Program-made: the position numbers and the translations under genes
Notes under the pieces: model-generated
What the model saw: only the letters and a program-made list of their open reading frames with translations
Told to the model about the DNA's origin: nothing
Database searches by the model: none
DNA from: a phage
NCBI GenBank assembly: GCA_024672275.1
Contig: GCA_024672275.1_4536.1
Strand: one strand, 5' to 3'
DNA length: 64,000 bases
In this document: positions 20,727 through 61,599 of the stretch, one piece after another
How positions within the stretch are numbered: position 1 is the stretch's first letter
How the letters are laid out: each line of letters opens with the position of its first letter

Positions 20727-20756
20727 AAAAGGAGCCATTCGGCTCCTTTCTTTTAT
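20727..20756. terminator. bidirectional terminator hairpin AAAGGAGCC-ATTC-GGCTCCTTT between convergent fibre and ssb genes
   Basis: Perfect palindrome flanked by A-run upstream and T-run downstream. Confidence 0.5.
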
Positions 20757-20781: not shown

Positions 20782-21669
20782 TCAGAACGGAATATCATCG
20801 TCGAAGTCCATTGGAGGTTCTTCTTGATTACTTGGAGTTGGTTCTGGTTGTGGTTCAGGCTTCTTAACTTCTTTCTTCTCTTCTTTCTTAGGTTGTTCTG
20901 CTGAACCACGAATGGCAGCAGCAACTTTATCAGACAGGGCCAGAACTTTACGAGCAGAATCAATCAGATCTTCTACAGATACAGTCTTAATGGTATGGTC
21001 TTTACAAGCATTGAGGATAGCGTGACCAACAGATGCCCCAAGATCATAATCATTAATATCAACGCCACGAGATTCAGCAATTTCCGATTTCAGTGTGACA
21101 GTTGCAGATTGAACAACCCCAGCGATATCGAAAGCATCGCCTTTAACACCATTACGAATCAGTTCCAGTGCACCATTTACTGCGTGACCAGTTTCCAGAC
21201 CTACAGTATCACGTTTTTTATAGGACTGCTTAGGAGCAGCATCGTTGGAACCTTTATTGCCAGAAGATTTGTTAGACTTCTGAACACCATCGGTAGACAA
21301 TACTGTAATACGAGATTTTTTAGTATTGTAGTAAGTTTTACCGCCTTTATTATCAACGCGATCAATATCAATACTTACTTCTACACCTTTTTCAATAGTG
21401 ATCCAATTATCACCTTCTTTGACTTGCAGGTTTTCATAACCTTCTTTCAGTTCAATATCACCAAGAGAAATCCAAACACCTTTCTCATCTGGTTTAGCAC
21501 CTTTCTCTTTCAGAACAAGAGAAGCTCGGTGAGTTGAAACAATCGTTTTTCCTTCCCAATGAAAAGTTTTAGGTTCGGCGAATTTATCCAGTTTAACGTA
21601 GTCTACGATACCAGTTGCATAAGTTACGGTTTTGCCTTTACGATCAGTTTCAGTATTAATTACGGACAT
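20782..21669 (-). CDS. ssb: single-stranded DNA-binding protein with acidic C-terminal tip DFDDDIPF (295 aa)
   Basis: SD GAGGAG; K/E/P-rich linker then C-terminal ...PPMDFDDDIPF-stop, the canonical SSB-Ct interaction motif; heads the replication block. Confidence 0.6.
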   Translation of the reverse strand: MSVINTETDRKGKTVTYATGIVDYVKLDKFAEPKTFHWEGKTIVSTHRASLVLKEKGAKPDEKGVWISLGDIELKEGYENLQVKEGDNWITIEKGVEVSIDIDRVDNKGGKTYYNTKKSRITVLSTDGVQKSNKSSGNKGSNDAAPKQSYKKRDTVGLETGHAVNGALELIRNGVKGDAFDIAGVVQSATVTLKSEIAESRGVDINDYDLGASVGHAILNACKDHTIKTVSVEDLIDSARKVLALSDKVAAAIRGSAEQPKKEEKKEVKKPEPQPEPTPSNQEEPPMDFDDDIPF

Positions 21670-21685
21670 TATTATCTCCTCTACA

Positions 21686-22078
21686 TTACATTAATTTTGC
21701 ACAGAAAGAGCGGAGTCTTTCCATATCATCTTGCTCTAACAGGTATTTACCTTTACCTATTCCAACTCCAATTTCACCATTAGGAAAATGAACTATTTGC
21801 ACTGGAAAACCTCCGAGTTTAATTGTGGCAGCTTTGCCTTCTTCGTCTATAACGTTTCGGATTGTATCTTGCAGTGAAATGAATTCTTTGTTTGTAATAG
21901 TGGTTTCAATTATTTCAGATGTTTCAACACGAGCAGTTAGCTTCTTGTTTCCACCTTGAATAACCAAAATTTGAAAATAAAAAGAGTTGTCAAGACCTAC
22001 AACATTTTTCTCAACTAGTGTCAAACTGGTATAGTTTCCATAAACAGTTTCAACAGCTATCTTAGAACGTTCAGTCAT
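21686..22078 (-). CDS. hypothetical protein (130 aa)
   Basis: ORF; possible TTGACA promoter element ~35 nt upstream; no motif recognised. Confidence 0.4.
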   Translation of the reverse strand: MTERSKIAVETVYGNYTSLTLVEKNVVGLDNSFYFQILVIQGGNKKLTARVETSEIIETTITNKEFISLQDTIRNVIDEEGKAATIKLGGFPVQIVHFPNGEIGVGIGKGKYLLEQDDMERLRSFCAKLM

Positions 22079-22123: not shown

Positions 22124-22717
22124 TTACCAAGGAATATCATCTTCTTCCAATCTGGTATCTACTTGAGGTGGACGTGGAACCTTAACCTCTTTCACAAAAC
22201 GAAGATATGGGAAACGTGTAGCAATTTTAATAACATGTTTGGCATCTTCTCTAACATCTTTGTGCAAGAAGCAGATCCCTGTTTCCAAGGTTGTTTCAAA
22301 ATCTTTAGAATAATAACAGTCCTTCCCATCAAATGCAGCCTGGCAGATGGACAGATCGAACTCATTTAGAAAGGTTGTCATTACGCTTGGTTCCATAATC
22401 ATAAGGTTGCAAAGCTGACCATCACGTTCAAACTCAAAAACGTGTTTAAGACCAGTAACACCTTCATAATTGTCAGAAGCCTCTTTGTTTCCTAGTTTAC
22501 GAATATTGGTTCCCATTAAAGCAGATGCAATTAATCCTTGTATTTGTTCTTCAGTCCGATGTGCAGGAAGGGATGTATAGAAATCCAGATCACGTCCAGC
22601 AATATCAAGAATACGCCAATCACGAACAGCACCGCCAGCCAAGACAGAATTAGGATCAGCGATCTTTAATACGGTAAGAATTTCTTTGGCAATATTGATT
22701 TGTTTTGATTTAGTCAT
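22124..22717 (-). CDS. Pol-beta-superfamily nucleotidyltransferase (CCA-adding/poly(A) polymerase head-like) with SSB-like C-terminal tip EEDDIPW (197 aa)
   Basis: GGAVRD motif followed by D-L-D (LAGGAVRDWRILDIAGRDLDFY); protein ends ...RLEEDDIPW-stop; SD GGAG; 8-nt overlap with upstream gene. Confidence 0.5.
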   Translation of the reverse strand: MTKSKQINIAKEILTVLKIADPNSVLAGGAVRDWRILDIAGRDLDFYTSLPAHRTEEQIQGLIASALMGTNIRKLGNKEASDNYEGVTGLKHVFEFERDGQLCNLMIMEPSVMTTFLNEFDLSICQAAFDGKDCYYSKDFETTLETGICFLHKDVREDAKHVIKIATRFPYLRFVKEVKVPRPPQVDTRLEEDDIPW

Positions 22718-23346: not shown

Positions 23347-26300
23347 TCAGTGACAACTGGCCCAGGAATTCCCCACGTCATATCCAGCAGTAAGCTGAAC
23401 ATTAAGATTGTAAAATTCTCCAGCCTTAGTAACAGCTAAAGCAGCAAGTTCACCTGCCCGACTATAAGCTGTAAACCATCCACCTTTGGGAGATTCATGA
23501 ATGTTAGCCCAAATTTGCCCTGTCTCTTTTTCCTTATTATGCTTCCATTCTTCAACTTTAGCAAGGCATTCTTTATCAATTTTCTTTTGTTCTTCAGGAT
23601 CGTCTACTTTCTTCCAACCTAATGATTCAGGTGAAAACCATTTGAATTCTACGAGGTTACGAGAAACTTCAAGCTGGGCTTCATCGTGATATGCAATCAT
23701 TTGTTGCACGAAGTCTTTATTCTTCCAGTCATCTTTAAAGAAGTCAACACTTAATCCTTCTTCTTCGATCATATCGTCATAAATAACCATTGCACGTTTA
23801 GCACAGATAACCCCACCGCTTTGGAACAGAGAGTTAAGAATCGCGTGAGCAGAACGAGTAGGAACCTTACGACCGTCAATACCCAAAACATATTGTTTAC
23901 CAGTCTTAACCCAGAAATCGTTTAAACGTTCTTTAAGACGCGCCAATGGGAATGCAGCTTCCCAGAAAGCATCGAACACCAATTGACCTGTAAACTTATC
24001 GCTACCAATTGTTTTAGCAACCTTGTCGGCTTGTGCACCATAGGTAATACCATACTTAACAGATTTAGCAGGACTACGTTCAAATTTACGTCCAATAGTT
24101 TCAGTGATACGTTTTGCCATCATTGTGTGAACATCATTAGGTTTCTCTAACAACAGAGCGTTACAATATTCGTGTGGCTCCGGCTCGTACCGCCAACAGT
24201 TTCCTGTGATGGTAATGCAGTCTTTCTGACGCATGACCCACGTACCAAGTTCTGTTTGTGGACACCAAACATCCTCTACACCCCACTCTTCAATAGTCAA
24301 ACTTTGAACAGGAATGTGAGAGCGGTTAGTCAATGTTGCCACTTTTACTTTCTGCTCTTTTGTATTGAAAGCTACAGAGATATTGCCTCCATGCACCAGG
24401 TACGAGGCAGTTAAAGCTGCTTCAAAAAGTTCACCTGGGTTCTGCGCCCAACGCCAAACAGGTTTTTGTTTATGTTCGTGCCAGTAACCATCTGCAATCA
24501 AGAAACCTTCCAAGAAAGCTACACGCTCGGCATGAGACATATTAACTACACGTTCTACCCACGGAACATCCCATTTACCTTGTTGAACATAAGTTAAACT
24601 ATTTACCTGATCTTGTTCCATGTTAAATGGAGCATTACAAATAATGTTATCTCCTGTGCAAAGCTCGGCAGTTGTTCTGACTTTAGGCACATAAGTATTC
24701 CCTTTACTACGGGTATTAACATACCAACGGTGATCTGCTGTTGCACGGTAAGTGTGTGATTTCCCTTTAATCTCAAACGTCTTACTATTTTTATAGAAGA
24801 CCTTACCTTTTACTTTAGTCCATTCTTTCAGACCTGTTTCAGCATTGTACCCTAAAATCTCATCCCCTTCCTTCAGGTCGTGATATCCTACCCAACCTTT
24901 ACGAGTCAAAGCTTGAGCATCCATCGGCACACAGTAGTGTGATTCAATTTTTGCTTCCAAAGAGTCGAAGTCGTAGCCAATCTGGAAGTATTTAGGAACC
25001 TCTACACCAAACAAGTTACGCATCTCCCATCCAAACAAAGATGTGACACGAGGAATATTAGCTACAGATCTGTGCTTCATACGAGAAGTTGCAGCATCAC
25101 ATGTAGCGGCTGGGGTAGGAATACGACCATCTGCCCTTACTGCGGCTAAGAAACCTTTATCGTATTCTTGATCTTCCTCATCTTCTTCCCAATCAGCACC
25201 ACCACCTAAAATAGAGTTCCTACGATGTTTATACGTTAAGTATTCTACAATCTGCGTAGCATAAGGGAATTTCTCACCCAAAGCTTGCAGGTTAGGACAA
25301 ATTTCTTTTTCCTGACCTTTGGTAAAACATGGGTTAGTCAATACTTTAAGACCGCGACCTTTACCTTTTGCTATACGCTCTTGAATCTTCCTTTCCAAAG
25401 TTTCCGGTGTGCACTCCAGATGATCACAACGATCCTGACAAAAATTAGAAGATAGAGTTTGCTCAACGTAAGCTCTAATACCTTTCTGAAGTTCTTCCTC
25501 GCTCTTTTTAATTTTGGTGCCAGATTTAAGCGTCAAGTCTTTATCTTTATATTCAGACGGTACCCAACCTAATCCTACAAGCCAGTTTTTAATATGGGTT
25601 GTATCGTTCAATGTTGCAGGAATGTTAGGATCACATAGAGGCTCATCTGCTGCAACTGGCAGTTTCCACTCTTTCCCCAACATAACTAACCACCAATCGC
25701 CATCCCTCTCTTCCAAATGACCATCATGTTTCTTAGCAAAATTGATCATATGGTTAGTTGGCTCTAAGTTCTTTTTAATTTGCAACTTAGGTGGAATAAA
25801 AGCCTTAAGATAACCTTTTGTTGCTGGTTTAGGTGGCAAAATAGGCTCAACGAGTAAACGAAGACGCTCCATTTCTGCATCCAAAAAAGCAAGGTTCTCT
25901 TCTGCTTGTTTCATGTTAAAAGCAAACCCACGGTGTTCCTGGCGTGTAATAATGTCTGCTACACGTTGTTCAAGTTCAAATGGACCTTCCCATTTATCAT
26001 AATCACCCCATTCTTCCATAAGGTAATTATATACGCTCGTATTGGCTTTGTTGTCATAGATACAGTAATAAAGCATATCCGCAGCAAAAGTCTTAAATCG
26101 ATCTTCTTCTGGAATCTCTTTACGGAAATCTATTTTTACATCACCACCTGCTTTTCGAGAAAGTGCTGCCAAGCTATGTCCTGATTTGCCCTCAATCTTT
26201 CGATCTGGGTTTAACACTTTACTCAAAATCAAGGAGTCAATAAGTTTTACCTTATTTTTGCCCCACGTATTATATTTAACACTGTAATCTAATCCATAAA

Positions 26301-26679
26301 ACAGTTTTGTAGCCAACCAGTCGTAGTTGATACCGTTGTGAGCCACAGCCATTTCAACTAGATATTCAGGCTTGTCTTTAAAATAACCTTCATGATTAAT
26401 AAAATCTGGGAAATCTTTTAGTTGAAAATGTGTGTAATCTTGCGCCACATACTCTTTAAGAACATATGTGTATTTACCATCTGACTCTTCGTAAGGACGC
26501 CCATCAAAGATGTATTTAGGGCCATCGTGGAAAGCTACTATTTCTCCTGTTTCATGGTTCTCTAAGACAATACAGTGCATTTGAAATGTGTCTTTGAGAC
26601 GATAAGGACTAGCTAAATAATCAATAGTGTCATTATTCAACAATCCGTTTGCTTCAATATCCCATGTAAACTTACTCAC
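23347..26679 (-). CDS. family A DNA polymerase with 3'-5' exonuclease domain, interrupted by an intein (1110 aa precursor)
   Basis: Exo I motif WDIEANGL; motif A-like GYDFDSLEAKIESHY; motif B RSPAKSVKYGITYG; motif C YHDE; ~245-aa insertion between motifs A and B. Confidence 0.85.
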   Translation of the reverse strand: MSKFTWDIEANGLLNNDTIDYLASPYRLKDTFQMHCIVLENHETGEIVAFHDGPKYIFDGRPYEESDGKYTYVLKEYVAQDYTHFQLKDFPDFINHEGYFKDKPEYLVEMAVAHNGINYDWLATKLFYGLDYSVKYNTWGKNKVKLIDSLILSKVLNPDRKIEGKSGHSLAALSRKAGGDVKIDFRKEIPEEDRFKTFAADMLYYCIYDNKANTSVYNYLMEEWGDYDKWEGPFELEQRVADIITRQEHRGFAFNMKQAEENLAFLDAEMERLRLLVEPILPPKPATKGYLKAFIPPKLQIKKNLEPTNHMINFAKKHDGHLEERDGDWWLVMLGKEWKLPVAADEPLCDPNIPATLNDTTHIKNWLVGLGWVPSEYKDKDLTLKSGTKIKKSEEELQKGIRAYVEQTLSSNFCQDRCDHLECTPETLERKIQERIAKGKGRGLKVLTNPCFTKGQEKEICPNLQALGEKFPYATQIVEYLTYKHRRNSILGGGADWEEDEEDQEYDKGFLAAVRADGRIPTPAATCDAATSRMKHRSVANIPRVTSLFGWEMRNLFGVEVPKYFQIGYDFDSLEAKIESHYCVPMDAQALTRKGWVGYHDLKEGDEILGYNAETGLKEWTKVKGKVFYKNSKTFEIKGKSHTYRATADHRWYVNTRSKGNTYVPKVRTTAELCTGDNIICNAPFNMEQDQVNSLTYVQQGKWDVPWVERVVNMSHAERVAFLEGFLIADGYWHEHKQKPVWRWAQNPGELFEAALTASYLVHGGNISVAFNTKEQKVKVATLTNRSHIPVQSLTIEEWGVEDVWCPQTELGTWVMRQKDCITITGNCWRYEPEPHEYCNALLLEKPNDVHTMMAKRITETIGRKFERSPAKSVKYGITYGAQADKVAKTIGSDKFTGQLVFDAFWEAAFPLARLKERLNDFWVKTGKQYVLGIDGRKVPTRSAHAILNSLFQSGGVICAKRAMVIYDDMIEEEGLSVDFFKDDWKNKDFVQQMIAYHDEAQLEVSRNLVEFKWFSPESLGWKKVDDPEEQKKIDKECLAKVEEWKHNKEKETGQIWANIHESPKGGWFTAYSRAGELAALAVTKAGEFYNLNVQLTAGYDVGNSWASCH
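24199..24933 (-). mobile_element. intein (Hint domain with degenerate LAGLIDADG block), residues 583-827 of the polymerase
   Basis: Begins with Cys right after motif A (ESHY|CVPMDAQAL), block B-like TADHRWYV, LAGLIDADG-like FLEGFLIADGYW, ends ...ITITGN|C with Cys +1 then WRYE; coordinates by residue arithmetic. Confidence 0.6.
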
Positions 26680-27992: not shown

Positions 27993-28008
27993 AAGGGCCG
28001 AAGCCCTT
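27993..28008 (-). terminator. hairpin AAGGGC-TTCG-GCCCTT after the primase-helicase gene
   Basis: Minus-strand GC stem with UUCG loop followed by a short T/A-rich tract; overlaps the stop codon. Confidence 0.35.
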
Positions 28009-29785
28009 AATAGTTGCTATCCGTAGGCAAATTAGCAGGATTGTTGAAATACTGCTCTTTGTCATGCAGAGTTGCAGTTCTAATATCATAGTAAAACTGC
28101 CCTGCTGGACCAGTTTCCGAGAACTCACGGTTTTTTAGGATAAAGCAATGAGTCGTATTGCGTTCTACAGGGTCTTCAGCGGCTTTATCTCGTTCCAAAG
28201 CCAAGGTAATACCAGCACCTTTAGCCAAGAAACTACTACCCATTGCATCGTCCTCTGTTAAGTGTTCATTGCCACCATTAGCCGACTTCTTAACGTGTGA
28301 GATGACGATAATGGTTATAGCATACTCTTTCATGATGCGCTTCAACCATGTTGCTAACTCTTCCTGGGCTTGAACATCCATACCAGAAAGCAAATCAGAA
28401 TAAGGGTCGATAACAAGAATTGTTACTCCAAAATAGATGATCATCTCCAAAACTTTTTCTTTGATAGACTCCACATCTGCTCCACGATCATCACACACAT
28501 AAAAACGTGGTGATCCATCTTCTCTTTCGTAAAAATCTAGGATTTTTTCTTTATTCTCTTCCAAGATTTGAAATTTCTCTTCCGGTGTTTTCCTGTGTAG
28601 AGGAATATGCAGGAACGAGGACAACAGGTTACGAGAATATTTCTTATAAGTTGCTTCCAAGGACAGAATGCCTAGGGTATGTTCTGGGTGCGCAACAATA
28701 ATATGTTTGGTGATCTCGTTCACCATCAAAGTTTTACCGATACTGGTCTTTGCCAGGATGACGGTAATCTCTTCCTCTACTAAACCACCACCCAGCATGT
28801 TTGCAGCTACACGCATAAAAGGAGGCAAGGTAATCATCTTGGATTCCAAGCATTCTAATGCAGCTTCATACAAGACATTAGAAGCATAAACACCTGCTGG
28901 GGTATATAGACGAGCACTCCAAAAAGCTTTTACGAAATCTTTTGCACGACCTTCTTCCAGATACTGATTGGCATCCTTAAGATCCATCTGCATACGGTAG
29001 ACTTTGTTACGAGGCAGCACCTTAACAATATTTTCAAATGCCTCATTACCTGCTTTGTCATTATCCATGCAAACAATAATCTTCTTAAATTTTTCAAAGA
29101 AAGGATATTGTGCCTGAACTTGTTTATACATACTGGTTTCACCAGTTGTGCCACTAACTACTGCTGGAAGTTCATATTTGTTGTCCAAGTTTTCAGACAG
29201 CATTTGATAAGCTGCCAGAGCATCGTGTTCACCACCTGTAATTACCACAGTATGAGAACGGTCTGCAAAACGAATTTGTCCAAAAAGATCTACATCTTTA
29301 CCTACTTGACCAATAGGTTTACTGAAATCTTTAGGATGGATACGACGCTTAAAACCAACCAATTCTTTACCGATGGTAGTTGGATATAAACAACTTTCTA
29401 CTACCATCTGATCCCCTTCCTGACGGTATTCATAACGAACACCATAGAAAGATGAAACTTTTTCTTTAATGCCTCGATAACCACGTGGGTTGGTTGATGT
29501 TTCTTGAACAATTTTACGATGAATCTGTTTATTAAATTCCGAACCCACAATCTCCTCCTCTTCTTCTAAAACTTCACCATTTTCTCGTAACCATTCTACG
29601 CTAGGAATAGTGTATTCACACGCAAAGCACTTAGCACCTTTATGCTCTCCATTAGAATCTAATCCATAAACCATCAGGTTATTACGAGAGCGATCCTTGC
29701 CATTTTTCATGCAGCGCGGACAACCTGTATGCCCTTCCTTGCTAAGATCAACATCAAATCCATATTTAGTTATAATGTGCGACAC
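28007..29785 (-). CDS. bifunctional DNA primase/helicase (T7 gp4-like) (592 aa)
   Basis: N-terminal zinc-binding CPRC...CFAC; TOPRIM (VVITGGEHDALAAYQ; CMDNDKAGNEAF); helicase Walker A ILAKTSIGKT and Walker B-like VIDPYSDL. Confidence 0.85.
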   Translation of the reverse strand: MSHIITKYGFDVDLSKEGHTGCPRCMKNGKDRSRNNLMVYGLDSNGEHKGAKCFACEYTIPSVEWLRENGEVLEEEEEIVGSEFNKQIHRKIVQETSTNPRGYRGIKEKVSSFYGVRYEYRQEGDQMVVESCLYPTTIGKELVGFKRRIHPKDFSKPIGQVGKDVDLFGQIRFADRSHTVVITGGEHDALAAYQMLSENLDNKYELPAVVSGTTGETSMYKQVQAQYPFFEKFKKIIVCMDNDKAGNEAFENIVKVLPRNKVYRMQMDLKDANQYLEEGRAKDFVKAFWSARLYTPAGVYASNVLYEAALECLESKMITLPPFMRVAANMLGGGLVEEEITVILAKTSIGKTLMVNEITKHIIVAHPEHTLGILSLEATYKKYSRNLLSSFLHIPLHRKTPEEKFQILEENKEKILDFYEREDGSPRFYVCDDRGADVESIKEKVLEMIIYFGVTILVIDPYSDLLSGMDVQAQEELATWLKRIMKEYAITIIVISHVKKSANGGNEHLTEDDAMGSSFLAKGAGITLALERDKAAEDPVERNTTHCFILKNREFSETGPAGQFYYDIRTATLHDKEQYFNNPANLPTDSNY

Positions 29786-29797
29786 TTTGTTCTCCTG

Positions 29798-30076
29798 TTA
29801 AAATGGTTCGTTAGTCTCCATCATATATTCTGCTTCTAGTTCTTCCATATGCTTTCTAAATTGGAAAGCAATTTCTGCTACAGTTACATTTAAATCTTTT
29901 TCAAAAACTTCTGTAGAGCCTTCATAAAAACGAATACCGTCAATTAAAAGCCCTCCGTGGTAATCCCAATCACTTTCACGAGAAAGCGGGTTAGGCTCTT
30001 CATAATAGTAATCCACCTCCACAACTAAGGCTTTCCCGTTACGAGTGGTGTATTCAAAATCAAAAGTGTTAATCAT
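29798..30076 (-). CDS. hypothetical protein (92 aa)
   Basis: ORF coupled to the downstream glycosyltransferase gene. Confidence 0.4.
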   Translation of the reverse strand: MINTFDFEYTTRNGKALVVEVDYYYEEPNPLSRESDWDYHGGLLIDGIRFYEGSTEVFEKDLNVTVAEIAFQFRKHMEELEAEYMMETNEPF

Positions 30077-31020
30077 TATAGCTCCTCAAATAAAAGTCTA
30101 CGACGCTCATTCAACACATCAATGTGATAATGAGTCCTGACATACTTAGCTAATGCTAATCCTTTCTCCATGCAAACATCGGGAGCACTTAATAAGTATT
30201 CCGTAATATCTTTCCACTCGGAAGGTGTTTCAGCAAAGAATAACAAATCTTTAAACTCTTGTGTATGATAATTCTCACGAGGAGAACAGATCAAAGGTAA
30301 ACCCTTAGCACCTGCCTCAAGAATTTTAAGATTGCTTTTTGCATTATTAAACACGTTATCAATCAATGGCGCAAGACTGATTTGATGACCATCGTAAGAT
30401 TCCATGTAGTTGGCATATGGTCTTACACCTTCATAAACACAAGTTGGTGCTACATTTTCTCTGATTACAGACCATTCACGACTACTTAAAACTTCAGAAT
30501 CCCTACGAAAACCACATATTGTAAGGTCTTTACCAAAATCGGGCAAGATAGCCAAATCTTGTTTATGTGTTTCACTTCCAGCCCAGACTAATGGAGTTTT
30601 GGAGTAGCGATCACGGGTCAACACAAATTGACCTTCATCGTAAGGAAGTCCATTAGGGATTATGTGCACATTATCATTGTATTGTGAAAGTTCAACTTGC
30701 AAAGCAGGTGTCGTAGTTGTAACAAGATCGCTGTGCTCTAAAAACCATTTTAAATGTTCACGAATACCTGATTCAAAAATACCTTCTAACATGTGTCCTT
30801 TTGGAATAACTAAAGAGTCATCCAAATCCATAACCATTTTAAAGCCTAGGTTTTTAAGGGCTAAAAAGCCCTCTTTACCTTTTGTTGGCACTCCGTTAAA
30901 AACGAAAACGTTGTATTTAGGTTGTGAAGAGAACTGCCTTGAGTAAGGCAGCACTACCCTATGGAAATCGCAGACACTATAATTGATTCCGTTACGATTG
31001 TCAAGAATTATTTGTCCCAT
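30076..31020 (-). CDS. GT-B fold glycosyltransferase, paralog 1 (314 aa)
   Basis: Motif KSNLKILEAGAKGLPLICS resembles the GT1/GT4 EX7E region; clear paralogy to 31028..31975 (shared VVDLDD, WAG..H..DL, ISLAPL(I/V)DN.FNN.KSNLKILEAGAKG). Confidence 0.5.
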   Translation of the reverse strand: MGQIILDNRNGINYSVCDFHRVVLPYSRQFSSQPKYNVFVFNGVPTKGKEGFLALKNLGFKMVMDLDDSLVIPKGHMLEGIFESGIREHLKWFLEHSDLVTTTTPALQVELSQYNDNVHIIPNGLPYDEGQFVLTRDRYSKTPLVWAGSETHKQDLAILPDFGKDLTICGFRRDSEVLSSREWSVIRENVAPTCVYEGVRPYANYMESYDGHQISLAPLIDNVFNNAKSNLKILEAGAKGLPLICSPRENYHTQEFKDLLFFAETPSEWKDITEYLLSAPDVCMEKGLALAKYVRTHYHIDVLNERRRLLFEEL

Positions 31021-31027
31021 ACTTCAC

Positions 31028-31975
31028 CTACAAACTTTCAATAACCTGGCGTCGCAACTCATTTGCATCTGCCAGATTATAATGTGTTCGAACATGTTCA
31101 GCCAAGAACAAGCCACGATCTTCCCGATAGTTTGGATTGCGAAGAAGCTTAACAATTTCGTAATGCCATTCTGCTTTGTTCTCTGCGTAAGCAACAGCAC
31201 GAGCATCTACAGGGTTAAAATAAGGTAATACCTTAGAACAAACAATCGGAATACCCTTTGCTCCAGCTTCTAGGATTTTGAGATTACTTTTACAATTATT
31301 AAAATCATTATCTACCAAAGGAGCTATAGCAATAGCATGACTTTCGTAAACACTCATGTAATTATCTAAATCTTTTACAGCAGCTTTATATTTAGCATTT
31401 GGTAAATTTCTGCGAATCTTAATCCACTCTTGTCCCGTGATGCTCTGCGATGCTTCATATCCCGCAATAGTAAGAAGTTCATCATCGAAAGTATTAGAGA
31501 CTAGTCGTAAATCGGGTTCGTGACTAGCACCGCCAGCCCATACAACAGGGGTACCGGATGAACGATCATTTGACAAAGTGAATTGTCCACTATCAAAAGG
31601 AAGTGCATTTCGGATCACAACAACATTCCTATTTAAGTGACGGATCTTATATGCCAAATATTCTGTAGTCACAATAACCACATCAGCAAGCTTAACCATA
31701 GCTACAATAGCATGAGTGTTTGACTCGTATAGACTTGCTAAATAATGTTCTGGATTAAGTTGGTAGAAATCATCTAAATCTACAACAATCTTAACACCTT
31801 GACGTTTCAAAGATAAAACGTATTCTGCACCTTTAGAGTGGATACGGTTAAACACAACAACATCTTTCTTAGGTTGAAGATTATGGTTGTTAAATGGCAT
31901 AACAATACGATGATAGTCACAACCGCTGTGAGGTTTTGCATCAATTTTTAGTTTAGACCATTTTTTATTTGACAT
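31028..31975 (-). CDS. GT-B fold glycosyltransferase, paralog 2 (315 aa)
   Basis: Same motifs as paralog 1 (KSNLKILEAGAKGIPIVCS); tandem arrangement. Confidence 0.5.
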   Translation of the reverse strand: MSNKKWSKLKIDAKPHSGCDYHRIVMPFNNHNLQPKKDVVVFNRIHSKGAEYVLSLKRQGVKIVVDLDDFYQLNPEHYLASLYESNTHAIVAMVKLADVVIVTTEYLAYKIRHLNRNVVVIRNALPFDSGQFTLSNDRSSGTPVVWAGGASHEPDLRLVSNTFDDELLTIAGYEASQSITGQEWIKIRRNLPNAKYKAAVKDLDNYMSVYESHAIAIAPLVDNDFNNCKSNLKILEAGAKGIPIVCSKVLPYFNPVDARAVAYAENKAEWHYEIVKLLRNPNYREDRGLFLAEHVRTHYNLADANELRRQVIESL

Positions 31976-32648
31976 GTGCTAGTGCCTCCTCATAGGAAAT
32001 TCGGATTTTCCCATTTTTAATATCCTCTAAAGATGCTTTATATTCTTCCCAGTTAATCCCGATAGCAGCTTCTTTCTCTTCTTTTGTCAGATTAGCAAAA
32101 GGCATAGGATTGTTTCCAAAAACATCGTCTGGGTGGATATAAGCCATGATACGAAGTGGACAAGGTGTTGCCTGAATACCATGATTCAAACCAGCAGCTT
32201 TCAAACGGTGTCCCCATTCGGCATCTTCAAAACCATAACCGTGAGTGTAAGGGCGGAAATAACCCATCTTCTCAACAACGGCACGAGAATACATTGCAAA
32301 TTGACACATTGCAAGTTCCCAGAGAATAACTTCTCCTTTGCTTCCAACAACTTTATCTTTGAAGTACTCCGGCATACCAAAGAAATCCCATCCTCCAGAA
32401 ACAGCTTGATCTACAAAGTATGTTTCCCATCCTTCCATGACTGGGTAGCAATCGTCGTCAAAAATAAACCAATAATCATAACCTTCTTCATAAAACTGGT
32501 GTATAAGTTCATTCCTGGCATAAGCTACACCTTTACGGTCTGGATCGTTGAATACTCGAAAATCTGCACGTGGATCTGTTACAAGGTAGTCTTTAAGTGG
32601 GCGGACACCTACAGTGATAACACCCACTCCGATTTTAATATTTTCCAT
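31965..32648 (-). CDS. GT-A fold (family 2-like) glycosyltransferase (227 aa)
   Basis: VAYARNELI, DxD-type FIFDDDCYP, and YGFEDAEW motifs. Confidence 0.55.
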   Translation of the reverse strand: MENIKIGVGVITVGVRPLKDYLVTDPRADFRVFNDPDRKGVAYARNELIHQFYEEGYDYWFIFDDDCYPVMEGWETYFVDQAVSGGWDFFGMPEYFKDKVVGSKGEVILWELAMCQFAMYSRAVVEKMGYFRPYTHGYGFEDAEWGHRLKAAGLNHGIQATPCPLRIMAYIHPDDVFGNNPMPFANLTKEEKEAAIGINWEEYKASLEDIKNGKIRISYEEALAHVK

Positions 32649-59035: not shown

Positions 59036-59392
59036 ATGAAAAAATTAATCTTAGCCACATTGCTGGCTACCGTAAGCTTCACCACTTACGCTCAAAAATT
59101 TGTAGCAGTTAAAACGGATATTGGTAAAGATGTTGTGATCACAGGCAACAAGTTTTACTATACATCTGGAAATGGTATTCTAGAAGAGTGCAAAGATGTT
59201 GAGGCATATACAGGAAAAGAAGATAACACGGAACGTCCTTTTTATTCGATTATAGCTACTTGCAAAAATGAAATAGTAGCTATTAAACAATACAAAGATG
59301 CACCTGGAGGAGAGTACTTATTAATCAAGAATATTAAGAGTGAAAAAACTGCAAAGTTTACAGTAATTATTTTAAAAGGAGAAACGTTCTAA
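59036..59392 (+). CDS. secreted hypothetical protein (start adjusted to Met11 of track ORF)
   Basis: SD AGGAGGG; signal peptide MKKLILATLLATVSFTTYAQ. Confidence 0.45.
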   Translation: MKKLILATLLATVSFTTYAQKFVAVKTDIGKDVVITGNKFYYTSGNGILEECKDVEAYTGKEDNTERPFYSIIATCKNEIVAIKQYKDAPGGEYLLIKNIKSEKTAKFTVIILKGETF

Positions 59393-60531
59393 TGAAATAC
59401 ACTATTTTTGGAGATGTGGCTGTTGTAAATAAGGAATATGGTGTTGAAGCTAATAAACTTCCTGCTGGAGTTTGGGTTGTCAACTGCGATCCGCACGGTA
59501 ACTACTCTTTAGTGCGTGGCGAAAGTTTCTCTCTTCCGAACACTCTTTATGGGGAAACTAAAGACCGCGCCGCACATGTTATTAAAACATTTGCTCGTCG
59601 TAGTAAAGAAGGTAAAAATACTGGGGTGTTACTGACAGGGACAAAGGGCAGTGGTAAGACGATGTTAGCTAAACTGATTAGCATGTCCCTAATGTCCACA
59701 GAAGGTTTAGGTATTCCAACCATTTTGGTGACACAGCCTTACACAGATGCTGGATTCTTAGAATTTATGAGTAAAATTACAGATCGTGCTGTTGTTTTAT
59801 TTGACGAGTTTGATAAAGTGTACGCTAAGAAAGAAGATCAGGAAGCACTGTTGACCTTGTTGGATGGAACAGGAAGTGGAAATAAACTTTACATCCTCAC
59901 TAAAAATAGTGGCTATATCTCAGAATATTTTGTAAACCGTCCTAGTCGTATCTACTACAGTTTCAATTACGATAAACTGTCTAGTGAAACTATGTTAGAT
60001 TACTTGGATAAGAACTTGGTAAATAAAAAGCACGTAGATAACTTCCAACGTTTATGGGATGTTAGCACAGAGTTGTCTTTCGATGTTATTCAAGGCATTG
60101 TAGAAGAATTGAATTTCTATCCAAAAATGACTTTTAAAGAATGTCTTGAAATGATGGGTATTTCTTTAGGGAACGATGCTAAATGGAATGTGGCTTCTAT
60201 CGTAGCTAATGGCAAAACCTTGAAGGTGAATTGGATCAATAACTGGCACGACTTCACCCCTACTAAGTTTTTGTCGGGTGCTTGTTCCCTGAACATCTAT
60301 CTACAAAGTTTGAAAGATGATGAAGTGGAAGCAATGGAAACCAACAGTTATGTTATCCTGGATGAAGATGGTGATCCACATATTGATCTATGTGCAACGG
60401 CTGATGGTCTAACTTGTGATCTGATTGAAGGTGGTAAGATTCTGGTTATGAGCACTACACCAGGAAACACTCTGCGAGTGGTTCTGGAGCCTGTAACACA
60501 ACGTTCCACTACCCTGGGTAGCGTATTCTGA
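59392..60531 (+). CDS. AAA-type ATPase (379 aa)
   Basis: Walker A LLTGTKGSGKT and Walker B VVLFDEFDK. Confidence 0.6.
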   Translation: MKYTIFGDVAVVNKEYGVEANKLPAGVWVVNCDPHGNYSLVRGESFSLPNTLYGETKDRAAHVIKTFARRSKEGKNTGVLLTGTKGSGKTMLAKLISMSLMSTEGLGIPTILVTQPYTDAGFLEFMSKITDRAVVLFDEFDKVYAKKEDQEALLTLLDGTGSGNKLYILTKNSGYISEYFVNRPSRIYYSFNYDKLSSETMLDYLDKNLVNKKHVDNFQRLWDVSTELSFDVIQGIVEELNFYPKMTFKECLEMMGISLGNDAKWNVASIVANGKTLKVNWINNWHDFTPTKFLSGACSLNIYLQSLKDDEVEAMETNSYVILDEDGDPHIDLCATADGLTCDLIEGGKILVMSTTPGNTLRVVLEPVTQRSTTLGSVF

Positions 60532-60547
60532 TACAGCACAAATAGCT

Positions 60548-60572
60548 AAACCCGCTTCGGCGGGTTTTGTTA
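60548..60572 (+). terminator. intrinsic terminator AAACCCGC-TTCG-GCGGGTTT + TTTTGTT
   Basis: Perfect GC stem with TTCG loop followed by a T-tract, after the ATPase gene. Confidence 0.6.
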
Positions 60573-60609
60573 TATTGATTTCAGTTTAATAGGGAGATAA
60601 TTGTTAGAT

Positions 60610-61599
60610 ATGCCAGTAAAGAAGAGTATTGAACAATATATTGAAGAGTGTCAACCTATTGCTGCTGCTAAAGGGATTGAGATTATTGGAATTGTTGAGC
60701 CGTTTACAGGACAACACACGAAAATGATCAATCGTTGTCAGTATGCTCATGAATGGAACACTACAACATTTAAAAACTTTAAAACTGGTCGTGCTGGTTG
60801 TCCTGTCTGTGCAATTGGGAAAGGATTTGGGAAAGGAGGTAAGACAGACGATCAGCACATAAAAGATTTCATTAACACAGGAAAGTTTAAACCTGGCACC
60901 ATTTTCACCAATACAGGCAAACGTAAAGGGAGTCATATTCTCTGGATGGTTGAATGTCCTGTTTGTTCTCATGATGAATACGTACAAGCAGGAGTGTGTG
61001 ATGGTAAATTTTACATTGCAGGGAACGATCTTAAAAAAGGGATTATCCCTTGTCGTTGTACTAGAGTTTACCGTTATACAAAAGATCAGATCACTTACAA
61101 GGTGAGAAAAGGTTTAGAAAGTAAAGGATATATCTGGATGGAGTGGATTAGTAAACCTTCCTCAACAGGAGAGTTTAAATATGGATGTAAGGATCACGGG
61201 GAGCAAATAGGGAATGCTGACCACTTATTACATAAGGGGCGTGGTTGTCCGCAGTGTAAAGGGCATACACAACAACAGGCATACATCAACTATATCTACG
61301 ATGAACAAAATCTTCTCTGTGCTTTGAAGTTTGGTATTGCCAATAGTAGTGATCGCCGTATCAAAGAACAAAATAGTCATAATGTGTTTACTATGAAACA
61401 GAGCCAAGTGTGGCACTTCCCTACTGTGAAGCAATGCAAAGATGCAGAAAAGCGTTGTAAGCGTGTCCTTCACACGGAAGCAGTGAGCAAATATTCTATG
61501 CCAGATGGCTACACAGAAACAGTAGAGTTATCTTGCATGGCCTCAATACAAAACATTTATAAACTTTATGGTGGAACATTACAGGAGGAAACATGTTAG
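60610..61599 (+). CDS. multi-zinc-ribbon protein with HNH-like CxxH...CPxC repeats (start uncertain)
   Basis: Repeated units CQYAHEW...GCPVC, ECPVCSHDEY, CKDHGEQIGNADHLLHKGRGCPQC; track start is a non-ATG codon, first ATG at Met4. Confidence 0.4.
   Translation: MPVKKSIEQYIEECQPIAAAKGIEIIGIVEPFTGQHTKMINRCQYAHEWNTTTFKNFKTGRAGCPVCAIGKGFGKGGKTDDQHIKDFINTGKFKPGTIFTNTGKRKGSHILWMVECPVCSHDEYVQAGVCDGKFYIAGNDLKKGIIPCRCTRVYRYTKDQITYKVRKGLESKGYIWMEWISKPSSTGEFKYGCKDHGEQIGNADHLLHKGRGCPQCKGHTQQQAYINYIYDEQNLLCALKFGIANSSDRRIKEQNSHNVFTMKQSQVWHFPTVKQCKDAEKRCKRVLHTEAVSKYSMPDGYTETVELSCMASIQNIYKLYGGTLQEETC

What the first reader, a model, noticed from the sequence alone, without database searches (positions are those of the whole stretch)
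22124..22717. GGAVRD-type nucleotidyltransferase carrying an SSB-like C-terminal tip (EEDDIPW-COOH)
The 197-aa protein has the GGAVRD...DLD head-domain motif of CCA-adding/poly(A) polymerase-type nucleotidyltransferases and ends ...RLEEDDIPW-stop. The phage SSB two genes away ends ...DFDDDIPF-stop, the canonical SSB-Ct tip that docks onto partner proteins. An enzyme bearing the same acidic tip with a terminal aromatic residue could be recruited to, or compete for, SSB-Ct binding sites on the host or phage replisome, analogous to the acidic tails of T7 gp2.5 and gp4. I do not know of a described nucleotidyltransferase with such a tail.
Basis: partly seen in the sequence, partly recalled or inferred. 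Interest (0 to 1): 0.65.

Follow-up and report, generated by a model that had tools for sequence, protein, structure and literature searches.

The report
Phage nucleotidyltransferase with SSB-type tail
A small phage enzyme related to the tRNA CCA-adding enzymes ends in a conserved flexible tail that copies the docking peptide of single-stranded-DNA-binding protein, which suggests that this widespread enzyme of unknown role is plugged into the DNA replication machinery.

Summary
ORF 22124-22717 (-) encodes a 197-aa protein with GGAVRD...DLD that ends ...EEDDIPW. Two genes downstream, an SSB-like protein ends with 12 residues identical to E. coli SSB (EPPMDFDDDIPF). The window is a Phapecoctavirus (phAPEC8-like coliphage), and the gene is already annotated "nucleotidyltransferase".

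Residues 181-197 are predicted disordered. The DDIPW tip is more conserved (0.96) than the catalytic domain (0.80) or the linker (0.55, with indels). Real bacterial SSBs ending DDDIPW exist. SSB-like tips recur in at least seven separate lineages of this family.

Best reading: the tail is a docking peptide of the SSB C-terminal type that tethers a template-independent nucleotidyltransferase to readers of the SSB tail. Binding, partner and substrate are untested. The enzyme is known but uncharacterised; the tail appears undescribed. Interest is moderate to high.

The parts
22124..22717 (-). Complete ORF of the 197-aa nucleotidyltransferase, including the stop codon at 22124-22126.
   Evidence: ORF list and sequence. 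It matches PHROG 10174 and 1614, both 'nucleotidyltransferase'. It is 96-100% identical in about 65 Phapecoctavirus genomes.
22190..22717 (-). Folded catalytic domain, residues 1-176. It has the head plus a short neck of the class II CCA-adding / poly(A) polymerase type.
22577..22642 (-). Motif A of the Pol-beta superfamily, residues 26-47: LAGGAVRDW...GRDLDFY, with catalytic D43 and D45.
   Evidence: G28, G29, D43 and D45 are invariant in 129 sequences. R32, D33 and W34 are at least 90% conserved. This stretch aligns to motif A of CCA-adding enzymes in PDB (6ibp, E=0.002).
22142..22189 (-). Flexible linker rich in proline and charged residues, residues 177-192 (EVKVPRPPQVDTRLEE).
   Evidence: Low pLDDT and no secondary structure. 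Mean conservation is 0.55, and length varies by up to 7 residues among close homologues.
22127..22141 (-). C-terminal tip DDIPW (residues 193-197), of the SSB-Ct type.
   Evidence: Conservation is 0.96, against 0.80 for the catalytic domain. All 10 homologues of 59-98% identity keep it. Bona fide bacterial SSBs end in DDDIPW.
21686..22078 (-). Conserved 130-aa gene of unknown function between the nucleotidyltransferase and the SSB-like gene.
   Evidence: It matches PHROG 16560, function unknown. The order NTase - 130 aa - SSB-like is kept in Phapecoctavirus, Justusliebigvirus and metagenomic relatives.
20782..21669 (-). SSB-like protein of 295 aa. Its last 12 residues (encoded at 20785-20820) equal the E. 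coli SSB C-terminus.
   Evidence: Only the tail matches SSB models. The body has no detectable similarity to T7 gp2.5 or to SSBs in PDB.
20727..20750 (.). Bidirectional terminator-like hairpin that closes the leftward replication operon after the SSB-like gene.
   Evidence: Terminator-like hits on both strands. Genes from the methyltransferase to the SSB-like gene overlap or are at most 45 nt apart.
23347..26679 (-). Family A DNA polymerase of 1110 aa, upstream in the same operon. It is a candidate reader of the acidic tails.
   Evidence: Annotated DNA polymerase I in relatives. DNA_pol_A is among the commonest neighbours of the family.
28007..29785 (-). T7 gp4-type primase-helicase of 592 aa in the same operon.
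   Evidence: Pfam DnaB_C plus Toprim_2.

Best explanation
The gene encodes a catalytically intact, minimal nucleotidyltransferase of the class II CCA-adding / poly(A) polymerase type. It has the head domain and a short neck, and lacks the body and tail domains that full-length enzymes use to hold tRNA. It is the third-last gene of the phage's T7-type replication operon.

Its last ~20 residues form a flexible linker ending in DDIPW, a genuine variant of the SSB C-terminal docking peptide. I propose that this tip works in trans. Its terminal aromatic residue and free carboxylate insert into the pockets that read the SSB tail. Candidate readers are the phage polymerase or primase-helicase, as for the T7 gp2.5 and gp4 tails, or E. 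coli proteins of the SSB interactome. This would tether the enzyme to replication or recombination intermediates, where it adds nucleotides to a 3' end without a template.

Shown: the fold, the intact active-site residues, the disordered linker, selective conservation of the tip, recurrence of such tips in the family, and the replication-module context.

Inferred: trans docking, the identity of the receptor, the substrate (DNA 3' end, RNA primer or tRNA), and the benefit to the phage.
For: Fold and active site:
- Model pLDDT 89.8.
- G28, G29, D43 and D45 are invariant in 129 sequences.

Tail:
- Residues 181-197 have low confidence and no secondary structure.
- Tip conservation is 0.96, against 0.55 for the linker (with indels) and 0.80 for the domain.
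- DDIP[FW] occurs only on this protein and the SSB-like protein in the whole phage.
- Seven bona fide bacterial SSBs end in DDDIPW, including an Orbaceae SSB ending EPDFDDDIPW.

Recurrence:
- 7 of 147 family representatives end in acid..xP[FWY], against 0.15% expected from composition.
- They fall in at least 7 lineages whose nearest relatives mostly lack a tip.

Context:
- The operon is tightly packed from polymerase to SSB-like gene.
- In 27 non-redundant loci, the commonest large neighbours are a gp4-type primase-helicase (13 hits) and a family A polymerase (13 hits).
- Seven of these primase-helicases end in gp4-like acidic tails with a terminal Phe or Leu.
- In T5-like contexts, a 5'-3' exonuclease-like protein carries a similar tail next to a tip-bearing NTase.

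Established knowledge:
- The T7 gp2.5 and gp4 tails dock on gp5. This is cited in bioRxiv 10.64898/2026.02.22.705581.
- The E. coli SSB-Ct is read by many partner proteins (PMC5872125, PMC7913777).
Against: - No binding data or complex model could be produced.
- The sister genus Justusliebigvirus keeps the same gene order, and its SSB-like protein also carries DFDDDIPF, but its enzyme ends ...EEFKI or ...DDDKI. The receptor may therefore not be the one that reads SSB.
- Most family members in replication modules with a canonical SSB tip have no such tail, so the tip is not required for the family's core function.
- The folded domain is mildly acidic (pI 5.8), which is unusual for a nucleic-acid enzyme.
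- Tolerance of E. coli SSB-Ct pockets for Trp instead of Phe is not documented in the papers I could search.
- Some tip-bearing relatives sit near RtcB and a ligase-like gene, which points to RNA repair rather than replication.
Confidence: 0.45

Rival explanations
1. It is a tRNA 3'-end (CCA) repair enzyme, as the GenBank annotation implies. The tail plays no part in substrate choice, or delivers the enzyme to some RNA-related partner.
For: The closest structures are tRNA CCA-, CC- and A-adding enzymes. The distant tip-bearing relative P0131 lies beside a ligase-like gene and two genes from RtcB. One RNA ligase appears among the neighbours. Phages of this group carry 11 tRNA genes.
Against: - The body and tail domains that bind the tRNA elbow are absent: 197 aa against about 400, with target-normalised TM of 0.28.
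- Motif B (RRD) is absent and motif D (EDxxR) is not conserved in the family.
- All 11 phAPEC8 tRNA genes already encode CCA, and the host has its own Cca (established knowledge).
- The family is common in T7-like phages, most of which carry no tRNA genes (my own knowledge). It typically lies between primase-helicase and polymerase (PMC7693777).
- An SSB-type tail has no obvious role in tRNA repair.
Confidence: 0.2
2. The acidic tail acts in cis as a nucleic-acid mimic. It occupies the enzyme's own substrate cleft and keeps a potentially toxic nucleotidyltransferase off until a substrate or partner displaces it. The tails of E. coli SSB, T4 gp32 and T7 gp2.5 fold back on their own DNA-binding surfaces in this way.
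For: A small CCA-like phage NTase, fHe-Kpn01 Gp22, is toxic in E. coli (PMC7291057). Related genera have acidic tails with a hydrophobic last residue that are not SSB-like in sequence (...EEFKI...DDDKI...MDEI...TDEI...WDEEF). That fits a generic acidic-plus-hydrophobic requirement.
Against: The model does not dock the tail onto the domain; the tail has low pLDDT and is unstructured. The exact D-D-I-P-aromatic match to the SSB tip, kept across 59-98% identity and reappearing as DDIPW, NDIPW and DGIPF in distant lineages, is more specific than charge mimicry needs. The domain is not basic (pI 5.8).
Confidence: 0.15
3. The tail is a competitor or decoy. By copying the SSB tip, the protein occupies SSB-Ct pockets on host repair, recombination or defence proteins. 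It thereby displaces them from SSB-coated DNA, or modifies them by nucleotidylylation, as a takeover or anti-defence measure.
For: The neighbouring SSB-like protein copies the host tail 12 of 12 residues, so this phage clearly addresses host SSB-Ct readers. Several defence systems sense phage SSB (bioRxiv 10.64898/2026.02.22.705581 and 10.1101/2025.11.11.687766). Precomputed tables give weak Gad2 (anti-Gabija NTase) hits for some family members. A Gad1 homologue is a neighbour in one locus.
Against: The Gad2 match is not reproduced by direct hmmscan even at E<=10, and PADLOC gives nothing. A monomeric enzyme with one tail would compete poorly with tetrameric SSB (inference). There is no evidence of protein nucleotidylylation.
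Confidence: 0.12
4. The resemblance is fortuitous, and the tail is a neutral disordered appendage.
For: Acidic C-termini ending in an aromatic residue are a general docking device and not specific to SSB. For example, the phage NrdB ends ...DDEELDF. Most family members lack the tip.
Against: Tip conservation (0.96) exceeds that of the catalytic domain, while the linker drifts and changes length. Only the SSB-like protein shares the motif in about 145 kb. There is about 30-fold enrichment over the composition expectation in the family.
Confidence: 0.05

Closest known systems
[quoted passage not shown]
   Same: It has the same head-domain fold and the same GGxxRD...DxD motif A. Template-independent addition of nucleotides to a 3' end is the expected chemistry.
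   Different: It is half the size, with no body or tail domains. Motif B (RRD) is absent and motif D is not conserved in the family. It scores below the Pfam gathering threshold (13.9 against 23 bits). It carries an SSB-type C-terminal tail that these enzymes lack.
Small 'tRNA nucleotidyltransferase / nucleotidyltransferase' genes of Autographiviridae and other phages (e.g. Pectobacterium phage PP47 gp28, Pseudomonas phage LKD16). Klebsiella phage fHe-Kpn01 Gp22 is probably one too, but I did not test it.
   Same: They share the fold family (BFVD hits at E 1e-6 to 1e-17), a size of about 170-220 aa, and a position between primase-helicase and DNA polymerase (PMC7693777). Their function is unknown, and Gp22 is toxic in E. 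coli (PMC7291057).
   Different: None is reported to have an SSB-like tail. Most representatives end soon after the conserved 'RFPDY' motif.
E. coli SSB C-terminal tip (SSB-Ct, ...MDFDDDIPF)
   Same: Both are an acidic run followed by I-P-aromatic at the very C-terminus of a disordered linker. The Trp variant is used by real SSBs.
   Different: Here the tip is attached to an enzyme, not to an OB-fold ssDNA binder. It is a single copy rather than four per tetramer, and ends in Trp instead of Phe.
Acidic C-terminal tails of T7 gp2.5 (SSB) and gp4 (primase-helicase), which dock on T7 DNA polymerase
   Same: It lies in a T7-type replication module (family A polymerase plus gp4-type primase-helicase). 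It has an acidic tail with an essential-looking terminal aromatic residue. Related loci have gp4-like helicase tails.
   Different: The bearer is a nucleotidyltransferase, a third kind of client. The primase-helicase of this phage ends ...PTDSNY, which is not strongly acidic. Binding to the polymerase is untested.
Stand-alone CCA-head-domain protein NP_344798.1 of Streptococcus pneumoniae (PDB 2la3, 191 aa)
   Different: It is bacterial, with 13% identity, and no SSB-like tail is reported.
Gad2, the anti-Gabija nucleotidyltransferase-domain protein (PF26128)
   Same: It is a phage-encoded protein with an NTase domain and unknown mechanism, and is toxic in some hosts (bioRxiv 10.1101/2023.05.01.538930). 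Precomputed tables list weak or faint PF26128 hits for some family members.
   Different: Gad2 is about 400 aa. Direct hmmscan of the query and 129 family members gives no PF26128 match.

Membership tests
Class II CCA-adding / poly(A) polymerase nucleotidyltransferases (PF01743) | Motif A: GGxxRD followed by the catalytic DxD. | tested here: met
   The protein has LAGGAVRDW...GRDLDFY. G28, G29, D43 and D45 are invariant in 129 sequences. This stretch aligns to motif A of CCA-adding enzymes in PDB.
Class II CCA-adding / poly(A) polymerase nucleotidyltransferases (PF01743) | Head-domain fold. | tested here: met
Class II CCA-adding / poly(A) polymerase nucleotidyltransferases (PF01743) | Passes the curated Pfam or NCBIfam score thresholds. 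| tested here: not met
   PolyA_pol scores 13.9 bits against a cutoff of 23. Only 18 of 129 family members match at E<=0.01. NCBIfam CCA models score 12.6 bits against a cutoff of 438.
Class II CCA-adding / poly(A) polymerase nucleotidyltransferases (PF01743) | Motif B (RRD, ribose recognition) and motif D (EDxxR, the protein template for CTP and ATP). | tested here: not met
   The positions before F120..SIC are variable, with no RRD. The query has E157-D158-x-x-H161, but ED is not conserved in the family; only H/Y161 and K164 are. The motif definitions come from my own knowledge of the family.
Class II CCA-adding / poly(A) polymerase nucleotidyltransferases (PF01743) | Body and tail domains that bind the tRNA. 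| tested here: not met
   The protein is 197 aa in all. The model covers the head plus a short neck, and the target-normalised TM is only 0.25-0.30.
Class II CCA-adding / poly(A) polymerase nucleotidyltransferases (PF01743) | CCA or poly(A) addition to an RNA 3' end. | not testable with these tools
   This needs an enzyme assay.
SSB C-terminal docking motif (SSB-Ct) | Acidic run plus [IL]-P-aromatic at the extreme C-terminus with a free carboxylate. | tested here: met
   The protein ends ...EEDDIPW-stop. Seven OB-fold SSBs from bacterial genomes end DDDIPW, so Trp is a natural variant.
SSB C-terminal docking motif (SSB-Ct) | The tip is carried on an intrinsically disordered linker. | tested here: met
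   Residues 181-197 have pLDDT of about 52-71 with no secondary structure. The linker varies in sequence and length.
SSB C-terminal docking motif (SSB-Ct) | The tip is conserved while the linker diverges. | tested here: met
   Tip 0.96, linker 0.55, domain 0.80. All 10 homologues keep it.
SSB C-terminal docking motif (SSB-Ct) | Binds the hydrophobic pocket and basic ridge of SSB-interacting proteins. | not testable with these tools
   No complex prediction or binding assay was available.
SSB proteins | An OB-fold ssDNA-binding domain. | tested here: not met
   The domain is a nucleotidyltransferase, so this protein is not an SSB. The neighbouring 'SSB' also shows no detectable OB-fold similarity by sequence; its fold was not modelled.
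Gad2 (PF26128, anti-Gabija) | A significant match to the Gad2 profile. | tested here: not met
   There is no hit for the query (E<=1), for 129 family members (E<=0.01), or for P0009, P0016, P0118, P0159 and P0131 (E<=10). Only precomputed weak or faint hits exist.
Gad2 (PF26128, anti-Gabija) | Inhibition of Gabija defence. | not testable with these tools
   This needs infection assays.
T7-type replisome client tails (gp2.5 / gp4 paradigm) | Encoded in a module with a family A polymerase and a gp4-type primase-helicase. | tested here: met
   The window operon contains both. Across 27 loci, DnaB_C/Toprim_2 gave 13 hits and DNA_pol_A gave 13 hits.
T7-type replisome client tails (gp2.5 / gp4 paradigm) | The tail binds the polymerase. 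| not testable with these tools
   This needs pull-down, SPR or a complex prediction.

The most novel reading that the evidence does not exclude
The SSB C-terminal tip may be a portable address label, not a feature of SSBs alone. In that case this phage nucleotidyltransferase is one of a set of non-SSB enzymes that carry it to plug into the same hub. The others found here are phage and cyanobacterial helicases, Shedu nucleases and a GIY-YIG-like protein. For the widespread small phage NTase family, this would mean the enzyme is a previously unrecognised replisome accessory. It would act on DNA or primer 3' ends at the fork rather than on tRNA. One low-probability version: it makes or extends short primers of the ACC(A/C) type that T7-type primases produce.
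Probability: 0.25. Interest if true: 0.8.

Novelty: new variant of a known kind. Interest (0 to 1): 0.55.

Why it matters
Small CCA-like nucleotidyltransferases are among the commonest unexplained genes in the replication modules of T7-like and many other phages. There are over 1,000 clusters at 50% identity, and at least one member is toxic to E. coli. A conserved SSB-type docking tail gives the first concrete and cheaply testable clue to where such an enzyme works and with whom.

If the tail binds SSB-Ct readers, the list of proteins that use this motif would extend from SSBs to enzymes. It would give a handle (tail peptide, tail deletion) for finding the partner and substrate. It would also raise the question of whether phages and defence nucleases, such as the Shedu proteins with the same tip, compete for the same hub.

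Tried and rejected
1. Gad2 membership. Precomputed tables list PF26128 for some homologues, but direct scans gave no match and PADLOC gave none. Rejected as a membership claim and kept only as a faint lead.
2. CCA synthesis for phage tRNAs. The window has no tRNA gene, and all 11 tRNA genes of phAPEC8 encode CCA. Rejected as the rationale.
3. Homology of the neighbouring 'SSB' to T7 gp2.5 or bacterial SSB. hhalign and PDB profile searches found only the tail. The SSB function remains an inference.
4. The first structure model, from 13 sequences, was poor (pLDDT 61.9). It was replaced by a model from 129 sequences.
5. Sequence-only PDB search with the small alignment gave spurious Cas12f hits. 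These were ignored.
6. DARNA, a defence that senses SSB and cleaves tRNA. It cuts anticodon loops and is activated by ssDNA presented by phage SSB, without binding SSB directly. I found no link to a CCA-type enzyme.
7. Literature searches for an SSB-like tail on a nucleotidyltransferase or other enzyme found nothing relevant.
8. Promoter-like sites in the operon are no more frequent than in shuffled sequence.
9. Copying of the tip from the SSB gene at the DNA level. Only the trivial GATGATATTCC is shared, so there is no evidence of duplication.

Full report
**1. The observation**

The minus-strand ORF 22124-22717 encodes 197 residues. It contains LAGGAVRDW (26-34) and GRDLDFY (41-47) and ends RLEEDDIPW-stop. 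Two genes downstream on the same strand, a 295-aa protein (20782-21669) ends EPPMDFDDDIPF-stop. These 12 residues are identical to the C-terminus of E. coli SSB, PDB 1eqq.

Among 256 ORFs of at least 50 aa in the window, only these two end in DDIP[FW]. The same is true of the other ~81 kb of the near-identical phage phAPEC8. A C-terminal x-P-[FWY] is expected in about 0.15% of proteins from composition.

**2. Where the window comes from**

The region is 98-99% identical to Phapecoctavirus genomes (phAPEC8-like E. coli myoviruses of about 150 kb). The gene is already annotated there as 'nucleotidyltransferase' or 'putative tRNA nucleotidyl transferase / poly(A) polymerase'.

The gene is the third-last of a tightly packed leftward operon. 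The order is methyltransferase, family A DNA polymerase, three small ORFs, NTase, a 130-aa ORF, then the SSB-like gene. Genes overlap or are at most 45 nt apart. The operon ends at a bidirectional terminator-like hairpin at 20727-20750. A gp4-type primase-helicase lies upstream at 28007-29785.

**3. The enzyme**

Sequence methods alone are weak. Pfam PolyA_pol scores 13.9 bits against a cutoff of 23, and NCBIfam CCA models score about 13 bits. PHROGs place the protein in two 'nucleotidyltransferase' families.

A profile search of 1.84 billion representatives found 1,034 related clusters, nearly all 175-240 aa. With 129 of them as the alignment, AlphaFold gave a model of pLDDT 89.8.

- The top 25 Foldseek hits in PDB are all class II CCA-, CC- or A-adding enzymes.
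- BFVD shows the same fold in the small 'nucleotidyltransferase' genes of many T7-like, phiKMV-like and other phages.

G28, G29, D43 and D45 are invariant in 129 sequences. R32, D33, W34, Y84 and K164 are nearly so. The enzyme should therefore be active.

It has no body or tail domains. Motif B (RRD) is absent, and motif D (EDxxR) is not conserved in the family. So it works like a template-independent 3'-nucleotide-adding enzyme, but it fails several defining tests for a bona fide tRNA CCA-adding enzyme.

The idea that it matures phage tRNAs is not supported, because all 11 tRNA genes of phAPEC8 encode their own CCA. No member of the family appears to be functionally characterised. One paper explicitly calls the role an open question (PMC7693777). 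Another reports that a small CCA-like phage NTase, Gp22 of Klebsiella phage fHe-Kpn01, is toxic in E. coli (PMC7291057). I did not test whether Gp22 belongs to this family.

**4. The tail**

Residues 181-197 have low confidence and no secondary structure in the model. Among the ten homologues of 59-98% identity, nine end DDIPW and one ends DDSFPW. Mean column conservation is 0.80 for the domain and 0.55 for the linker, which also changes length by up to seven residues. It is 0.96 for the last five residues. This is the signature of a short linear motif on a flexible tether.

Is a terminal Trp a legitimate SSB tip? A scan of bacterial genomes for [DE]DDIPW-stop found seven proteins with a clear SSB OB fold (E 1e-6 to 1e-68 against E. 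coli SSB) that end DDDIPW. One is an Orbaceae SSB ending EPDFDDDIPW. In viral contigs, 13 OB-fold SSBs and further phage SSB families end the same way. So DDIPW is a natural SSB-Ct variant.

**5. Recurrence within the family**

Of 147 representatives (no more than 50% identical to each other), seven end in acid..xP[FWY]: DDIPW twice, NDIPW, DGIPF, KPIPF, ETPF and SIPY. Others end in acidic runs plus an aromatic residue: SDDDF, WDEEF and FSDEW. This is about 30 times the composition expectation.

The tip-bearing proteins fall into at least seven lineages whose nearest relatives mostly lack a tip. That means repeated gain or frequent loss.

The closest outgroups keep the gene order polymerase - NTase - 130 aa - SSB-like and have long extensions rich in proline and acidic residues. 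These end ...SFNNEEFKI...AWDDDKI...EFMDEI...HWTDEI and ...PWDEEF. They share the general format of an aromatic residue, an acidic cluster and a hydrophobic C-terminus, but not the I-P-aromatic ending.

**6. Genomic company**

In 27 non-redundant viral loci, the commonest large neighbours within 5 kb are gp4-type primase-helicases (13) and family A polymerases (13). DNA ligase, thymidylate synthases, methylases and 5'-3' exonucleases follow. RNA ligase appears once.

In about 25 of 76 loci, a 200-350-aa protein ending in a canonical SSB tip lies 0.5-8 kb away, usually downstream on the same strand. Seven neighbouring primase-helicases end in acidic tails with a terminal Phe or Leu, like T7 gp4. 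In two T5-like contexts, a 5'-3' exonuclease-like protein ends DDFDDF or DDDYDF, while the NTase ends NDIPW or SDDDF.

Acidic C-terminal tails with a terminal aromatic residue are thus common currency in these replication modules, and the NTase repeatedly acquires one. A caveat is that RtcB and a ligase-like gene flank one of those NTases, so an RNA-repair role for some subclades cannot be excluded.

**7. Interpretation**

The best-supported reading is that the tail is an SSB-Ct-type docking peptide that tethers a minimal template-independent nucleotidyltransferase to whatever reads the SSB tail. That could be the phage polymerase or helicase, following the T7 paradigm. Because the neighbouring protein copies the host tail exactly, it could also be an E. 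coli SSB-interactome protein. I give this about 0.45.

The rivals are:
- a tRNA-repair enzyme whose tail is incidental (0.2);
- a cis-acting autoinhibitory, nucleic-acid-mimicking tail (0.15);
- a competitor or decoy for host SSB clients or defence systems (0.12);
- chance (0.05).

Binding, partner and substrate are all inferred, and I could not run complex predictions.

**8. What is new**

The gene and its fold class are known and annotated. The family is known but uncharacterised. I found no description of an SSB-type tail on this or any other nucleotidyltransferase.

The genome scans also showed that the same tip sits on other non-SSB proteins. These are a cyanobacterial XPB-like helicase family, Xanthomonadales Shedu nucleases, a T5orf172 protein and a phage helicase. 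The 'portable SSB tip' may therefore be a wider phenomenon that is apparently not described.

I rate the finding as a new variant of a known kind, with interest 0.55.

Noticed in passing
window 20782-21669 (-): The protein annotated as SSB in some records shares only its last ~12-25 residues with any SSB. Those 12 are identical to E. coli SSB. Its body (PHROG 4477, function unknown) has no detectable similarity to bacterial SSB, T7 gp2.5 or any PDB chain. Its fold and ssDNA binding remain to be shown.
   Followed up: partly
L093-L172 (bacterial genome loci), e.g. L135, L124, L097: Non-SSB bacterial proteins end in DDDIPW or EEDDIPW. They include a ~512-aa XPB-like helicase family in filamentous cyanobacteria (XPB_DRD + ResIII + Helicase_C), Shedu SduA_C nucleases in Stenotrophomonas, Luteimonas and Marilutibacter, and a T5orf172/MUG113 protein in Chromatium. 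Several unknown proteins do too.
   Followed up: partly
Thirteen are OB-fold SSBs. The rest include a phage DNA helicase (PHROG 16), non-canonical SSB PHROGs and several families of unknown function, the largest with 20 members of about 200-220 aa.
   Followed up: partly
window 29798-30076 (-): A 92-aa ORF immediately upstream of the primase-helicase ends ...METNEPF. This is another x-P-F C-terminus, with only two acidic residues nearby.
   Followed up: no
L085 5026-5973 (Escherichia phage PD06): In this Justusliebigvirus, the SSB-like protein is annotated with 16 extra residues after DFDDDIPF (...DDDIPFAPIGLQYGRNFLHCF). That would bury the tip. It could be a lost stop codon, a sequencing error or a real change.
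   Followed up: no
window 23347-26679 (-): The family A DNA polymerase is 1110 aa here and about 1105 aa in PD06, but about 860-866 aa in phiWec181 and FKP3. The extra ~245 residues begin at a Cys (CVPMDAQ...) and end ...TGN before a Cys, which looks like an intein. Not tested.
   Followed up: no
L047, L015, L060, L045, L069, L064, L052: gp4-type primase-helicases next to family members end in acidic tails with a terminal Phe or Leu (ESDF, DEIDF, QEVDF, DVAEF, EVHEF, IEDEF, INDIL). They resemble the polymerase-binding tail of T7 gp4.
   Followed up: yes
L089 413-1486; L091 1300-2397 and 9480-10625: In T5-like contexts, a 5'-3' exonuclease-like protein ends DDFDDF or DDDYDF. A ligase-like gene directly precedes the tip-bearing NTase, and in L091 an RtcB gene lies two genes after it.
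   Followed up: partly
L088 9143-11148 (phAPEC8 59143-61148): The cluster contains 11 tRNA genes, and all of them encode their own 3'-CCA.
   Followed up: yes
L087 41244-42329 (phAPEC8 NrdB): The ribonucleotide reductase small subunit ends ...SDDEELDF. This is the classic acidic/aromatic tail that binds the large subunit, and a reminder that such tails are a general docking device.
   Followed up: no
GenBank records MG065650.1, MG065639.1, MG065689.1: Records named 'Campylobacter phage' B15, A150 and A110a carry this region. B15 is 98-99% identical to the E. coli Phapecoctavirus sequence, and the other two match Justusliebigvirus. The host labels look doubtful.
   Followed up: no
window 30076-32648 (-); L087 37131-40409: Three glycosyltransferase genes lie just upstream of the primase-helicase. 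phAPEC8 also carries a dTDP-sugar biosynthesis block. This suggests a sugar modification pathway whose target is unknown.
   Followed up: no
L107 (MAG 'Proteobacteria bacterium OH_PFB_59', JAEZZU010000064.1): An ORF of the same length (197 aa) ending in the same 18 residues (...VPRPPQVDTRLEEDDIPW) as the window's nucleotidyltransferase occurs on a 43.5-kb contig binned into a bacterial MAG. It is probably a phage contig mis-binned, or a phage infecting that cell.
   Followed up: no
one of the 27 loci in alignment A3: One neighbour of a family member is a Gad1 (Gabija anti-defence 1) homologue (E=1.7e-60). I did not identify which locus.
   Followed up: no
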